Positions 18,657-42,966 of a stretch of DNA of 64,000 bases are shown here, piece by piece. Positions within the stretch are counted from its first letter, which is position 1; each line of letters starts with the position of its first letter. The translations under genes and the position numbers were made by a program. Source of the stretch: Eledone cirrhosa (taxonomy: Eukaryota). A model generated the notes under the pieces. It worked only from the letters and a program-made list of their open reading frames with translations, had not been told where the DNA came from and did no database searches. The stretch lies in the NCBI GenBank assembly GCA_964016885.1, contig OZ024740.1:317006001-317070000 (forward strand), in the 5' to 3' direction.

Positions 18657-19080
18657 TAAATCACATGAATACACCAATTTCGCATTAGAAAGATTAACAT
18701 TTATTATGTAATTGACACATGTTTTGTTGAATGAAAACCTGGTTAAACTTCAAGAAGTTGATATCTCATACTGCTGACGTAAAATATTTGAATTCAAGTT
18801 CTCCGAAATAAGCACATCGGTTTAGCGATTCTAGATATGCTCACCTCCATATCGATGAAACATGTGTCAGTTATGTAATAAATGTTAATCCCTCTACTGC
18901 GAAATTGGTGTATTCATGTTATTTATTAATTTCTATATAAATACTTCAGTAATTACCTTCATCGTACCAACAGTTGATCTCCACTGAAATACTATAAGGG
19001 ATTCATTTGTTGAGTCAAAAACCACTGTATGTTAACAGTCTTTGGTTACAACTAATGAAAACTGATTACTACTATAATCT
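18657..19080. repeat. Fold-back element with hammerhead 3' half and extension
   Basis: Arms ~18657-18724 / 18857-18925; GAAAC-ATGT-GTC then AATAAA; extension shares TTGTTGAGTCAAA with 35516-35528. Confidence 0.65.
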
Positions 19081-19207
19081 GTCTCTCTCTCTCTCTCTCT
19101 CTCTCTCTCTCTCTATATATATATATATATATATATATATATATATATATATATATATATATATATATATATATATATATATATATATATATATACATAT
19201 ATATATA

Positions 19208-19510
19208 TAATCTGAGTTTTTCGAATATTAATAATAACATTCAATTCGTTTGCAATTATGCAAACAAACCTCAATTTTATAGCCATGTCAGTAAAATTGA
19301 GGCTTGTTTGCATAATTGCAAACAAATTGAATGTTATTAATCCCGTCGACGTTGACTTTTCCTTTCATCCTTATGAGGTCGATAAAATAAAGTACCAGTA
19401 ATGCACTGGATAATTGCTGGCCTTGTGCCTAAAGTAGAAACAATTATTAATATTCGAAAAACTCAGATTACATTTATTGTATTCAGCCATGTAGAGTGAA
19501 AATTTTCTTT
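19208..19510. repeat. Fold-back element interrupted by a SINE
   Basis: Arms 19208-19279 / 19292-19470; the right arm is split by a SINE; (TA)n on both sides. Confidence 0.8.
19340..19448 (+). mobile_element. 5'-truncated Meta-like SINE
   Basis: CCTTTCATCCTTATGAGGTCGATAAAATAAAGTACCAG; flanked by TTATTAAT duplication. Confidence 0.85.
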
Positions 19511-19944
19511 TATATATATATATATATATATATAGAATATTGGGTTTGAATCAAAGTTGTAGCCACAGTGTAGCAGATACTATTCAAATTGTTTGAGGTG
19601 GTCACAAAGCACTCAATGGAGTAAGAAGTTAATACATTTTCGTCCAGAGTAAACACAAAGTTAAGAAAGTGTGACACCAAGAAAAGTGACCAAAAGTAGA
19701 GGCCATATTTATACCATAACAATGATAAATACAAATAGGTTGAAGACTAATTTGGGCCACCTCGAGTTGATTAGAATCAATAGAAATTGATAAAAATCTT
19801 TGATATGTTTCTGGAACTCCGTGAAGCTACATCACGAGTTGCATAATGCATATATATTTACAAATTTGTTAAAAGTATACATTCAGAAAAGCTCAATATG
19901 AGGCAATTGACAAAAGGGAGGAGGAATTAGATAGATATGACATA

Positions 19945-20400
19945 GAGGACAATTGGAAGTTCTCAGGTTACTGATGAGACTTGTGGCTGGAGTAAAGCAC
20001 CAGTCAGATAGAAGGTGTCCTCATGATAGAACATCATTGTGGCTAGAGCTGTTAAAGCTAAGAGACAGGTGTGAAAAGTTTGGAAAAATGGAGGTAGAAA
20101 AGATCAATACTAGGTAGTTAAATAAGAAGCTAGGTGTCCGGTATACATAGCACACAAAAAAAACTGAAAACAGGAGCTTTGTCAATGTCTTGTGATATGA
20201 GGATCAGAATGTGATGTGTCCTGCAATGCAAAGCAGTGTGTCAGAGAGAAGAAGAATGTTTTTAAGGAAAAGTGTGACATTGGTGCACTTAGCAGTACTG
20301 ATGTTAATAAGAAACTAACCTAGAAATGCTCTTATTAGAGGTTGATGAATGTAGAGAATGAATAGGAAGAAGAGAGACTACCCTCAGTTGACAGAGCGAT
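19945..20400 (+). mobile_element. Old degenerate RTE internal fragment
   Basis: Aligns by eye to ~58905-59390 (TDETCGWS, EKC, RLMNVENE). Confidence 0.7.
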
Positions 20401-20674
20401 CAGCTATCAAAATATATACTCAGATAGCTGTGACATGATCACAGCTTAAAATAGTAATACTCCACCATTGCCATCGCCACCACCACTACCATCCATCTAA
20501 CTGGGACAAACCCGTCTAACCCATGCTAGCGTGGAAGATAGATGTTAGACAATGATGATGATGATGATGATATATATATATATATATATATATATATAAA
20601 AGAAATCGTTTTAAAAAAAAAACAATATAAAACTGGAAAGAAGTAAGTGGTGAAGTTAAAACATATATACATAA

Positions 20675-21150
20675 ATTCCGACCTCACACACTTACACCTC
20701 TCCAAGACAATGTCACTGGACCGAGATCTTTGGCGCTACACAGTAATACAGAAGACCCGCCTTGCCTAAGTACAAAGCGAAACCTACAGTCAGTAGACAC
20801 CTCTAACAAAAATACACCACCCCCACCATATTCGATGTAAAGTTATGTTGGTACCACAACATCCAGTCCGAAATAAATGAGGTCGTCTAGGTGTCATGAC
20901 AAAAAAAACATACAGTCCACACAGTCCACGCTGTAATGTGGCCGTGTAGGTAACACGGTAAAAACCTCCCAGTCCACACTGTAAACGTGGTTGGTGTTAG
21001 GAAGGGCATCCAGCCATAGAAAACCCGCCAGACAGTCCTATATGAGCAAGACAACCAATCTTGCCTCAAGTGGGAAAATTCCCGTCCAAACCCATGCAAG
21101 CGTGGAAGATGGACGTTAAACAATGATGATGATGATGATGATGATGATGA
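20675..21150 (+). mobile_element. RTE 3' end fragment
   Basis: NSDLTHLHLSKTMSLDRDLWRY coding end, 3' UTR and (GAT)n tail. Confidence 0.9.
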
Positions 21151-39779: not shown

Positions 39780-41634
39780 TTATGAAAAATTAATAATAAT
39801 AAAAAATCTCTTCATAGTTATTTTTAGCAGATAAACAGTATTTGGTTTGGTTAGGTCACAAGACATAATTCATTCAAGTGGCTTTTCCATCCTGAGGAGA
39901 TATTTTCTTCTCCATAAGAGATTAACTATTACGTATTTAATCTTGTCTGTACAACTTGTTTTCATTTCATTTTATTTTATTTTTTATTTATTTTTTTGTG
40001 TCATTCAATTAAAATAAGCACCATCGTTATATATATATATACACAGTATATATATATATATACAGTATATATATATATATATATATACAGTATATATATA
40101 CATACAGTATATATATACAGTATATATATATATACAGTAGATATATATATATATATATACAGTATATATAAATTAGGTATATTTTTGTCTATTTGTTCTT
40201 TACACACACACATATATTTGCCGTTACGTAAAATATATTATATCATTGGGAGTAAAAATTTTAAATTTCAGTTACTAAGAAAGAAAATTCCATTCTGCTC
40301 TGCCAAAAGAAATCTATTTTTATTCTTCTTTTACATATATTTAAATATAAAATTTAAAACAATTTTCTATTTACTTATATGACAAATAATTTCAATTATC
40401 ACCATTATTATTATGGTACATTATTATTACACCCGTGTAATAATAAAATATTATGGAGTTCTCGGGTGGAGGGAACCACAAAAAATATAAATAAACGAGT
40501 AATTTACGATGGCAATGTTCGTTTAAAACGTATTAACAAATCAAGAAAAAATTTTTCACCTTCAAAATTTAATCTAATCTATCCTTAAAATTGAAAATGT
40601 TTTCCTATTACACCCGTCTCCGAGCCAGGTGTATTAATAATAAAAAAATTGCCATTATTTTTATTATTATCATTTTAAAATAATAAATTATAGTAACCAC
40701 TAGTTCAAGGTTGGTGTATTTACGTTTTATCGCTGGATGTCAATGATTAGCCTCTGATTAAAAAACAAGAACAAACAAAATAAAACCAACAACCTCTCCT
40801 CTACTCTATCTCTGAGGCATCTTCCATACATCGTTAAATACCCACAGAAGGTGCGTGTCTCCATTACAGTTGCTACATAATTATAGGGTATCTTTCTTTC
40901 AGCTTGGGCTGCTGTCCCCCTCCCCTCTGTCGAAAATAGATTAACGAAACAAATTAAACAAACACTAGTGTGTGTAGAATGTTATCTTACCTTACCTTAC
41001 CTTACTTAGCTGTTGATCTTTTTAAACCAAGCAGCTTCAGGTGTTGTCAGTATTGCCTTATTGTCTTACTGGGCGACTGCTTAACTTTGACTCTTCAGTC
41101 ACACATCATATGTGTATGTGTGATCATCATTACCAACGTTTTACGTCCATTTTCCCACGCTAGCATGGATTAGATAAGTTATCTTGCACATACAGAACTG
41201 ATTTTAGCTCGGTTTCAACAACAGGATGCACTTCCTAACGCCAGCCTCATTTACAGTTAGTAGTGGGTGCTTTTTGTCGTGACACCTATATATATATATA
41301 TATATATATATATATATATATATATATATATATATATATATATATATACGTGTGTATATATATATATATACGTGTGTATATATATATATATATATATATA
41401 TATATATATATACGTGTGTATATATATATATATATATATATATATATATACGTGTGTATATATATATATATATATATATATATACATGTGTGTATATATA
41501 TATATATATATATATATATATATATATATGTGTGTGTATATATATATATATATGTGTGTGTGTATATATATATGTGTGTGTGTATATATATATATATATA
41601 TGTGTGTGTATATATATATATATATGTGTGTGTA

Positions 41635-42292
41635 TCATCATCATCATCATCATCAACGTTTAACGTCCGTGTTCCACGCTTGCATGGGTTTGGACGGGGG
41701 TAGTCCCACTTGAGGCAAGAGTGATTGTCTTGCTCGCATAGGACTGTCTGGCAGGTTTTCTACAGTTGGATGCCCTATGTATATATATATATATATATGT
41801 GTGTGTGTATATATATATATATATGTGTGTGTGTGTATATATATATATATATGTGTGTGTATATATATATATATATATATATGTGTATGTATATATATAT
41901 ATATATATATGTATATATATATATATATATGTGTGTGTATGTATATATATATATATATGTGTGTGAGTATGTATATATATATATGTGTGTATGTATCATC
42001 ATCATCATCATCAGGTTTAGCGTCCGTGTTCCACGCTTGCATGGGTTTGGACGGGGGTTTTCCCACTTGAGGCAAGAGTGGTTGTCTTGCTCGCATAGGA
42101 CTGTCTGGCGGGTTTTCTACAGTTGGATGCCCTTCCTAACACCAACCACATTTACAGTGTGGGGCTGGGAGGTTTTTACCGTGTTGCCTACACGGCCACA
42201 TTACAGCGTGGACTGTCTGGCGGGTTTTCTACAGCTGGATGCCCTTCCTAACACCAACCACATTTACAGTGTGGGGCTGGGAGGTTTTTACC
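41635..42292 (-). mobile_element. Two RTE 3' UTR fragments separated by a TA/TG microsatellite
   Basis: 41655-41776 and 42014-42292, the latter with an internal duplication. Confidence 0.85.
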
Positions 42293-42482
42293 ATATATAT
42301 ATATATGTGTGTGTATGTATATATATATATATGTGTGTGTATATATATATATATGTGTATATATATATATGTGTGTATATATATATATATATGTGTGTAT
42401 ATATATATATATATATATATATATGTATATATAAAATAAAGTTAAATAAAAGTCAAATGATTAAAATTTAGCTTCGTTTATT

Positions 42483-42537
42483 ACTGCTATATATATTTCA
42501 GTGACAGCCATCTTTGGCTGTGACCTCTTCAGGCAGT
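42483..42537 (-). ncRNA. Type I minimal hammerhead ribozyme motif (mirror copy)
   Basis: Exact reverse complement of 42766-42820. Confidence 0.82.
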
Positions 42538-42765
42538 TTGAATTAGTATGGTATAGACAAGTACATATGTTGTTTAGGTGTATGATATTGTCAATACTCT
42601 GATATGCCCAGTTCCTTGTTGGGTTGTTAATTCACTGGGGAACTGGAGTCATATATGTGAATTAACAGTGAATTAACAACCCAACAAGGAACTGGGCATA
42701 TCAGAGTATTGACAATATCATACACCTAAACAACATATGTACTTGTCTATACCATACTAATTCAA

Positions 42766-42820
42766 ACTGCCTGAAGAGGTCACAGCCAAAGATGGCTGTC
42801 ACTGAAATATATATAGCAGT
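42766..42820 (+). ncRNA. Type I minimal hammerhead ribozyme motif
   Basis: ACTGC-CTGAAGA-GGTCACAGCCA[AAGA]TGGCTGTCACT-GAAAT-ATAT-ATA-GCAGT; perfect 5-bp stem I, intact core, AATAAA immediately after. Confidence 0.82.
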
Positions 42821-42966
42821 AATAAACGAAGCTAAATTTTAATCATTTGACTTTTATTTAACTTTATTTTACACTACTCCGGAGTAACCAAACCAACCTG
42901 CGCACTTCGTCGAGTGCTCCAGCCTGCATACTGAGGTGTTGGTATACAACCAACATAAACTCAAAA

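What the first reader, a model, noticed from the sequence alone, without database searches (positions are those of the whole stretch)
19010..42960. Conserved YYGAGTRCT motif and terminal hairpins in the one-sided extensions of unrelated fold-back elements
Seen, read in the hammerhead/AATAAA orientation: TCGAGTGCT at 42910(+), 36917-36925(-) and 21892-21900(-); TTGAGTGCT at 31868(+); TTGAGTACT at 22271(+); weaker TTGAGTC at 19010 and 35519, and TAGAGTG at 19492. Most have an upstream TAYTC able to pair with GAGTR. Several end in a small hairpin just before (TA)n (TGTTGG..CCAACA, TTGTTG..CAACAA, GGATGCTT..AAGCATCC). Inference: a shared cis signal, such as an RT-recognition or priming structure, or an internal promoter, conserved across families whose other sequence has diverged. 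I do not recognise this motif as described.
Basis: partly seen in the sequence, partly recalled or inferred. Interest (0 to 1): 0.75.

Follow-up and report, generated by a model that had tools for sequence, protein, structure and literature searches.

The report
Conserved stem-box in Penelope retroelement tails
The YYGAGTRCT motif is real and sits, always on the same strand, in the one-sided 3' tails of many unrelated Penelope-like retroelement stubs lodged in TA microsatellites, where it likely forms a small RNA stem that would help the element's reverse transcriptase choose where to start copying.

Summary
Observation confirmed. YYGAGTRCT occurs 8 times in the window against 1.4 expected. 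In 1.4 Mb of independent DNA from the same genome it occurs 100 times, 66 of them 20-130 nt upstream of a (TA)n run and only 15 downstream of one. Of 87 fold-backs with a one-sided extension, 24 carry the box in the forward sense and none in reverse.

The fold-backs are short 3' ends of Penelope-like elements (PLEs). They show 5' truncation, variable inverted copies, and precise alternative 3' ends. One box-less family shares its end with an RT + GIY-YIG element. The "extension" is the known PLE tail.

New here: the box is the 3' strand of a 4-bp helix whose 5' strand (RCTC) lies about 7 nt past the arm end. The two strands covary (ACTC/GAGT, GCTC/GAGC, GTTC/GAAC): 15 of 20 families are complementary against 7.0 by permutation, P = 2e-4.

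The function, positioning the reverse transcriptase or its internal start, is inferred from Frangieh et al. 2024. No autonomous PLE carrying the box was found. Terminal hairpins are real at the cited places but not general. Other agents of this scan noted a small shared stem-loop on other DNA of this genome.

The parts
42432..42871 (+). E8 fold-back: inverted plus direct copy of a ~315-nt unit. A hammerhead-like core lies at about 42765-42830 (+) and is mirrored in the other arm.
   Evidence: Family: 412 candidates, and all 40 scored copies are 100% identical over 216 nt. Structural variants.
42872..42967 (+). E8 tail. 5' strand ACTC at 42876-42879, box at 42910-42918, terminal hairpin at about 42932-42963, then (TA)n.
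   Evidence: (z -2.10).
36947..37310 (-). E7 fold-back. A hammerhead-like core lies at about 36987-37051 (-).
   Evidence: (2114 candidates; 40 scored at 95-100% identity).
36852..36946 (-). E7 tail. 5' strand ATTC at 36936-36939 (ACTC in other copies), box at 36917-36925, hairpin at about 36875-36891.
   Evidence: The tail-bearing copy ends at the same place in 30 of 30 loci. The inverted arm ends at one place in 24 of 30 loci.
31802..31920 (+). E5: 5'-truncated copy of the E7 family, with the box at 31868-31876.
   Evidence: by eye against E7.
21927..22155 (-). E3 fold-back.
21832..21926 (-). E3 tail. 5' strand ACTC at 21916-21919, box at 21892-21900, terminal hairpin at about 21866-21882.
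   Evidence: (z -3.73).
22172..22235 (+). E4: short hairpin head.
22236..22328 (+). E4 tail. 5' strand ACTC at 22258-22261, box at 22271-22279. It ends in (AC)n.
   Evidence: (R1 hit at 22252-22286). Folding z is +0.92.
19536..19635 (-). Tail of a further element with no detected fold-back. The box is at 19608-19616, the 5' strand is directly upstream, and it ends in the (TA)n at about 19513-19535.
   Evidence: the helix appears in the MFE structure.
35174..35612 (+). E6: fold-back at 35174-35421 and a 191-nt tail. The 5' strand region is at 35449-35457 (a perfect complement of a canonical box). The weak box is at 35519-35527.
18663..19084 (+). E1: fold-back at 18663-18919 and a 165-nt tail with the weak box at 19010-19018. 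Its tail is related to the E6 tail.
19209..19510 (+). E2: fold-back at 19209-19469 and a 41-nt tail. ATTC at 19481-19484, weak box at 19492-19500.
17926..18326 (-). Box-less comparison element: a fold-back plus tail that shares about 200 nt of its 3' end, tail included, with an autonomous RT + GIY-YIG PLE.
50400..50878 (-). Box-less fold-back with a 49-nt tail.
18371..18569 (+). Box-less fold-back with a 47-nt tail. A solo copy lies at about 34950-35070.

Best explanation
The motif is the 3' strand of a short conserved helix in the 3' 'tail' of many non-autonomous Penelope-like retroelement families, and it likely acts as the RNA feature that positions the element's reverse transcriptase, which would set the inner of two copying start sites.

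Shown:
- The fold-backs are PLE-type insertions in (TA)n.
- Each unit has two precise alternative 3' ends: the arm end and the tail end.
- The helix's 5' strand (RCTC) begins 3-11 nt past the arm end in 16 of 20 families.
- Its 3' strand (T-N-GAGY, usually followed by R-C-T) follows after a loop of 9 to about 100 nt.
- The two strands change together.

Inferred:
- Both cut strands of the (TA)n target prime cDNA on the element's RNA.
- One cDNA starts at the tail's end and the other at the A/T-rich linker just 5' of the helix. This gives an inverted arm without a tail and a direct copy with one.
- The helix with its flanking bases is what the RT, or an RT dimer, holds on to.
For: 1. Enrichment, fixed strand and fixed place.; figures are in the observation check.

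2. PLE nature.
- Solo units with a fixed 5' end, 5'-truncated copies, and inverted and direct copies truncated unequally.
- Precise arm ends and tail ends in 24 and 30 of 30 loci.
- More than 10,595 GIY-YIG candidates in the genome.
- RVT_1 + GIY-YIG ORFs.
- An autonomous copy aligns with the window's element at 17926-18326 through arm and tail.

3. Covariation by a blind rule. The rule takes the first RYTC in the first 40 nt of the tail and the first T-N-GARY after it.
- 20 families have both. 15 are exactly complementary against 7.0 by permutation, P = 2.2e-4.
- Outer pair: A..T 11, G..C 7, G..T 1, A..C 1 (Fisher P = 7.7e-4).
- With 592 kb of further loci: 14 of 21 against 6.9, P = 7.4e-4.
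- On the model-fitted alignment A5 (17 sequences from few families): AU 8, GC 8, other 1. No shuffle of 500 reaches the observed pairing or covariation score.

4. Sequence around the helix is not conserved between families.

5. Published mechanism. The PAc protein cleaves and extends both strands. Reverse transcription starts at two adjacent internal sites in a stem-loop, and the tail is the stretch between them (PMC11167929).

6. The families are young. Identities of 95-100% mean the element is under current selection for mobility.
Against: - No autonomous PLE with this box was found. None of 30 GIY-YIG loci and only 1 of 20 further loci (1620 nt downstream) have the strict motif in sense downstream of the ORF. 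Loose helix-plus-repeat patterns downstream of PLE ORFs are fewer in sense than in antisense: 7 against 17, and 11 against 21.
- The dominant, very young autonomous PLE has a box-less tail (36,215 candidates; 150 scored at 98-100% identity). Its tail is seen.
- About half of the tail families lack the helix by my rule. 20 of 45 clusters have both elements.
- The helix is only 4-5 bp. It appears in the MFE of the isolated tail in 8 of 19 families. Whole-tail z-scores in the window range from -3.7 to +0.9.
- The G-C families may descend from few switching events, so the permutation P overstates independence.
- No RNA data were available. No binding or activity was tested.
Confidence: 0.55

Rival explanations
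1. Shared descent only. All box-bearing tails would come from one ancestral tail, and the box is simply its slowest-decaying piece, with no present role.
For: Some tails are visibly related beyond the box: E1/E6, the B/B2 families and the A/E4 families. The G-C variants could form one clade.
Against: Between clusters nothing but the two strands and a few flanking bases is conserved. Paired changes keep complementarity. The families are young and active, so master copies are filtered for mobility. The strand and the distance to the arm end are fixed.
Confidence: 0.2
2. A DNA-level signal. The tail would be recognised as DNA by the GIY-YIG endonuclease, so that elements insert next to or into existing copies. 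This was reported for the tail of the Drosophila virilis Penelope, as cited in PMC11167929.
For: PMC11167929 cites earlier work in which the tail was needed for endonuclease recognition. Insertions here cluster and nest in the same (TA)n tracts.
Against: Loop length between the two strands varies from 9 to about 100 nt. That, together with the covariation, fits a single-stranded helix rather than a duplex binding site. Most insertions lie in plain (TA)n.
Confidence: 0.1
3. A transcription or RNA-processing signal, such as an internal promoter box, a 3'-end formation signal or a small-RNA processing signal.
For: From memory, not from any call: the TCGAGT core resembles part of a Pol III B box. 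AATAAA lies about 45-60 nt upstream of the arm end in several families.
Against: The box lies at the 3' end of the copied unit, downstream of everything it would have to drive. I saw no A-box partner. Rfam gives no match in the tails at E<=10. No RNA run was available for testing.
Confidence: 0.07
4. The fold-backs are DNA transposons (MITE or foldback type) and the box is part of a subterminal transposase site.
For: Near-perfect inverted repeats sit in TA-rich targets.
Against: The tail is one-sided. Solo units and 5'-truncated copies keep intact 3' ends. Inverted and direct arms are unequal. One family is continuous with an RT + GIY-YIG element.
Confidence: 0.03

Closest known systems
The PLE 'tail' and internal initiation of reverse transcription (Poseidon of Anolis, PAc; Frangieh et al. 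2024, PMC11167929; tail and inverted 5'-truncated copies in Craig et al. 2021, PMC8557442)
   Same: An extension at one end only. An inverted 5'-truncated copy beside the direct one. An AT-rich target. Two alternative 3' ends. A stem-loop between or at the start sites.
   Different: Tails here are 41-191 nt, not 30-40. The inner start lies in an A/T-rich linker that matches the (TA)n target, whereas PAc starts at sites with no homology to the target. The helix is defined by sequence, shared by many families and covarying. None of this is described in the parts of the four papers I read.
3'-tail stem-loops shared by SINEs and their partner LINEs ('stringent' recognition, e.g. eel UnaL2/UnaSINE1) - recalled, not from a call
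   Same: Non-autonomous elements with unrelated bodies keep a short conserved 3' structure next to a terminal repeat.
   Different: The partner carrying the same structure was not found here. The enzyme would be a PLE reverse transcriptase, and there are two start sites.
Animal non-LTR retrozymes (Cervera & de la Pena 2020, PMC7229834; Li et al. 2026 preprint, 10.64898/2026.07.22.740005)
   Same: Short non-coding derivatives of PLE ends that carry minimal type I hammerheads.
   Different: Retrozymes are defined as tandem arrays that yield circular RNAs. These elements are fold-backs or solo units in (TA)n with a tail, and several box-bearing families have no hammerhead.
Hydra- and Neptune-clade C-terminal-EN PLEs (Craig et al. 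2021)
   Same: (TA)n targeting, hammerheads, C-terminal GIY-YIG.
   Different: I did not determine the clade of the autonomous elements here. Earlier notes of this scan name Hydra.
Template-boundary helices of telomerase RNA - recalled, an analogy only
   Same: A short helix beside the copied region that the related reverse transcriptase would hold.
   Different: No evidence here for boundary function or for binding.

Membership tests
PLE-type insertion (non-autonomous derivative) | An inverted and/or tandem 5'-truncated copy beside the direct copy | tested here: met
   full fold-backs, solo units, and unequal truncations of the two arms in the E7 and E8 families.
PLE-type insertion (non-autonomous derivative) | A tail present at one end only | tested here: met
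   (30 of 30 and 24 of 30 loci); 76 such fold-backs in four blocks plus the window, and 87 in the seven survey blocks without the window.
PLE-type insertion (non-autonomous derivative) | 3' end shared with an element that encodes RT and GIY-YIG endonuclease | tested here: inconclusive
   Met for the box-less family at 17926-18326 (ORF domains). Not met for any box-bearing family. The sample was about 60 copies of at least 7 PLE families out of more than 10,000 candidates.
PLE-type insertion (non-autonomous derivative) | Minimal type I hammerhead in the repeated end | tested here: inconclusive
   My pattern (core, helix II, helix I) hits families F0 (the E7 family), F17, F30 (E8) and F15. Rfam models give nothing at the gathering score or at E<=10. 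The abundant family with the ~110-nt hairpin head has none.
Non-LTR retrozyme | Tandem repeats, each with a hammerhead, that give circular RNA | tested here: not met
   Copies are fold-backs or solo units, not tandem arrays. RNA was not testable.
RT-recognition stem-loop of a 3' tail | A conserved helix supported by covariation | tested here: met
RT-recognition stem-loop of a 3' tail | The same structure in the autonomous partner | tested here: not met
   The (TA)n-targeting autonomous PLEs seen have another tail, with a possible helix of their own that I did not test.
RT-recognition stem-loop of a 3' tail | Required for binding, or for start-site choice | not testable with these tools
   This needs biochemistry or a mobility assay.
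MITE / foldback DNA transposon | Symmetric terminal inverted repeats with target-site duplication, and no 5' truncation series | tested here: not met

The most novel reading that the evidence does not exclude
The RCTC...T-N-GAGY helix is the first sequence-defined recognition element for a Penelope-like reverse transcriptase. It fixes the inner of the two internal start sites, about 7 nt to its 5' side. It is read by a currently active enzyme that mobilises well over a hundred thousand short elements in this genome. It works in the way a template-boundary helix works for the related telomerase.
Probability: 0.35. Interest if true: 0.8.

Novelty: new variant of a known kind. Interest (0 to 1): 0.6.

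Why it matters
How PLE reverse transcriptases find their RNA and choose their unusual internal start sites is an open question. So far one element has been studied in vitro, and it has no defined RNA motif.

This genome offers a natural mutagenesis series. Dozens of young families have unrelated bodies and variable loops, but share one covarying helix at a fixed distance from one start site. That gives direct, cheap predictions for the published in vitro assay: disrupt the helix, restore it, move it.

It also gives a practical marker for annotating these elements, which standard pipelines and Rfam miss. If the strict-motif density holds genome-wide (100 per 1.4 Mb, very uneven between blocks), there would be of the order of 10^5 such tails. 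That figure is an extrapolation.

Tried and rejected
- **Rfam.** No hammerhead or other family at the gathering score, or at E<=10 in the elements. The microRNA-like hits are just hairpins or simple repeats.
- **Autonomous PLE family of L141** (1096-aa ORF with RVT_1). A box-like site after the stop codon looked promising. Thirty copies show that the element runs on through conserved low-complexity sequence, so the site is not near the end. Rejected.
- **Partner search.**
  - Strict motif downstream of 30 + 20 GIY-YIG loci.
  - 3' regions read by eye.
  - tblastn of PLE ORFs on the first four survey blocks and the window, 864 kb.
  - Loose helix pattern.
  - 30 loci of the E8 family.
  - None of these gave a partner.
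- **Covariance model R1**, built from four seeds. It was too narrow: 17 hits from few families. MAFFT misplaced the 5' strand when loops differed, so the main covariation test is my own script.
- **Hammerhead orientation as a test of polarity.** It is uninformative in full fold-backs, because each arm carries an outward-facing copy.
- **RNA evidence.** No RNA holder was listed. Contigs of four runs of unknown library kind, laid on E8, gave no usable ends. Contigs labelled as two other organisms hold the hammerhead-to-tail part without differences. I draw nothing from that.
- **Failed script.** A script for tail folding with a control set did not return. The rerun left out the control.
- **Earlier findings by place.** The look-up on this genome was empty.

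
Full report
**1. The observation**

The window lies at C1:317,006,001-317,070,000 of a 3.0-Gb assembly rich in (TA)n.

- YYGAGTRCT occurs 8 times against 1.40 expected.
- Of the three further exact hits, 19608(-) is one more tail ending in (TA)n. 35449(-) is the complementary strand inside the tail of the element at 35174-35421. 23767(+) has no such context.

**2. Test on independent DNA**

I took seven 200-kb blocks from six chromosomes.

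- In the first four blocks the motif occurs 75 times, against a mean of 27.6 for 200 column-permuted versions.
- 51 of those 75 have a (TA)n run starting 20-130 nt downstream. The figure for the permuted motifs is 9%.
- Over all seven blocks there are 100 hits, 66 with (TA)n downstream and 15 with it upstream. One block has neither hits nor fold-backs.
- 31 hits lie 18-49 nt beyond the outer end of a fold-back, always in the motif's own sense. Within 250 nt the count is 37 downstream against 4 upstream.
- Starting from architecture instead of motif gives the same answer. Of 87 fold-backs flush with a simple repeat on one side and 13-200 nt away from one on the other, 24 carry YGAGTRC in the forward sense and none in reverse.

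Neither is met.

**3. What the elements are**

- The E7 family (36947-37310) has at least 2114 candidate copies. The 40 scored are 95-100% identical.
- The E8 family (42432-42871) has 412 candidates. The 40 scored are identical over 216 nt.
- Their loci show four kinds of copy:
  - solo units that begin at the centre of the palindrome;
  - full fold-backs;
  - copies in which both arms are truncated at the same point;
  - copies in which the inverted arm is longer than the direct one.
- The tail-bearing copy ends at one nucleotide in 30 of 30 E7 loci. The tail-less inverted arm ends at one place in 24 of 30.
- The genome holds more than 10,595 GIY-YIG candidates, and long ORFs with RVT_1 and GIY-YIG domains.
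- Autonomous copies in the survey run ORF, then several hundred nt with a hammerhead-like core, then arm end, then a 45-60-nt tail, then (TA)n.
- The window's fold-back at 17926-18326 aligns with such a copy through arm and tail.

This is the arrangement described for PLEs: an inverted 5'-truncated copy, a tail at one end, and (TA)n targets (PMC8557442, passages). So the 'one-sided extension' is the PLE tail. The arms of the window's ten elements are unrelated by BLASTN.

**4. What the motif is**

In nearly every box-bearing tail an ACTC lies upstream. Tails that lack the exact box often carry a variant, with a matching change upstream.

I tested this with a rule fixed before counting. The rule takes the first RYTC in the first 40 nt of the tail and the first T-N-GARY after it, with one representative per BLAST cluster of tails.

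- Of 45 clusters, 20 have both elements.
- 15 of those 20 are exactly complementary: ACTC/GAGT 7, GCTC/GAGC 6, GTTC/GAAC 1, ATTC/GAAT 1. Permutation of partners gives 7.0 (P = 2.2e-4).
- The outer pair reads A..T 11, G..C 7, G..T 1, A..C 1.
- By eye, two of the five misses (F5 and F10) are cases where the rule picked an earlier chance match, and two more are G-U compatible.
- Adding 592 kb of other fetched loci gives 14 of 21 against 6.9 (P = 7.4e-4).
- A covariance model from four seeds found only 17 sites from few families. On that model-fitted alignment the outer pair is AU 8, GC 8, other 1, and no shuffle of 500 reaches the observed values.
- The 5' strand starts 3-11 nt after the arm end in 16 of 20 families. 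The loop is 9-109 nt. The 3' strand ends 13-119 nt before the repeat.
- Outside the two strands and a few neighbours (T two before GAG, C three after it, T/C-G after the 5' strand), families share nothing.

Caveats: the helix is short. It appears in the predicted MFE of the isolated tail in 8 of 19 families. Folding z-scores are mixed. The number of independent A-U to G-C switches is unknown.

**5. Terminal hairpins and hammerheads**

- Across families the region after the box is only mildly structured, with z < -1.5 in 5 of 19.
- By my own pattern, hammerhead cores with helix I and helix II are found in four tail families, including E7 and E8.
- Rfam does not report them.
- The most abundant box-bearing family has none.
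- In a full fold-back each arm carries an outward-facing copy. The 'hammerhead orientation' therefore defines polarity only through the arm that adjoins the tail.

**6. Mechanism**

Frangieh et al. (PMC11167929, main text parts 1-2 read) report four things for one vertebrate PLE:

- the protein cuts and extends both DNA strands;
- reverse transcription starts at two adjacent internal sites in a stem-loop;
- the genomic tail is the stretch between those sites;
- the hammerhead is not needed in vitro.

The structures here fit that picture. They show two exact 3' ends per family, and arms that behave as two separate cDNAs.

I infer that the helix with its flanking bases is the feature that holds the enzyme. 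I also infer that the inner start lies in the A/T-rich linker just 5' of it, which, unlike in PAc, matches the (TA)n target. This is inference; nothing was tested.

**7. Results against this reading**

- No autonomous PLE with the box was found in about 60 copies of at least seven families.
- The dominant active PLE has a box-less tail (36,215 candidates; 150 scored at 98-100% identity; ORFs up to 1217 aa).
- So either the partner is unsampled, or box-bearing elements are mobilised by an enzyme whose own tail differs.
- About half of the tail families lack the helix.

**8. Novelty**

I searched the paper library three times. The terms were Penelope-like with hammerhead, microsatellite and tail; with target-primed reverse transcription, in vitro and GIY-YIG; and with non-autonomous, hammerhead and inverted repeats.

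I read passages or sections of four papers. None describes a conserved motif or covarying helix in PLE tails. Supplements were not opened, and subscription journals are outside the library.

Notes of this scan on other DNA of the same genome mention a small shared stem-loop that may set the second start. I reached the helix independently, before that look-up.

**Verdict:** a real feature, and a new variant within a known kind of element.

Noticed in passing
G000, many places, e.g. pairs on C1 near 261.596/261.599 Mb and on C3 near 54.274/54.276 Mb: A very young autonomous PLE family. The 150 scored copies are 98-100% identical in the endonuclease region, out of 36,215 first-look candidates. 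ORFs reach 1217 aa. Copies often sit as head-to-head inverted pairs 2-3 kb apart.
   Followed up: partly
window 48000-57000: Multi-kb arrays of (TA)n and (TATG)-like repeats, with G+C of 5-19%.
   Followed up: no
window about 20470-20560, 21000-21150, 22380-22590, 22750-22900, 47560-47940: Many copies of a SINE-like repeat that ends in an (ATG)n-type run. It is often adjacent to the PLE stubs. Its identity was not examined.
   Followed up: no
window 12067-12508: Three tandem copies of a ~140-nt unit, bounded by a 21-nt inverted repeat.
   Followed up: no
window 6001-8000: A stretch with G+C of 0.535 and a strong GC skew (0.67), unlike its surroundings.
   Followed up: no
L141 (G000:C1:83811000-83820999) and 585 candidate relatives: An intact 1096-aa PLE ORF (RVT_1). 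Its copies are 98-99% identical, and its 3' region is conserved (TG)/(TA)-like low-complexity sequence, so it appears to end in a different kind of repeat.
   Followed up: partly
window 42735-42967, runs X5 and X6: Contigs from runs labelled as two other organisms hold the hammerhead-to-tail part of E8 with no differences, but not the 5' part of the unit.
   Followed up: no
G000:C5:60000001-60200000: A 200-kb block with no fold-back and no motif hit. Other blocks have 28-136 fold-backs, so these elements are very unevenly spread.
   Followed up: no
L071:2855-2965 and many others: The most abundant box-bearing family has a G+C-rich ~110-nt hairpin head and no hammerhead core. What supplies its transcription is unknown.
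   Followed up: partly
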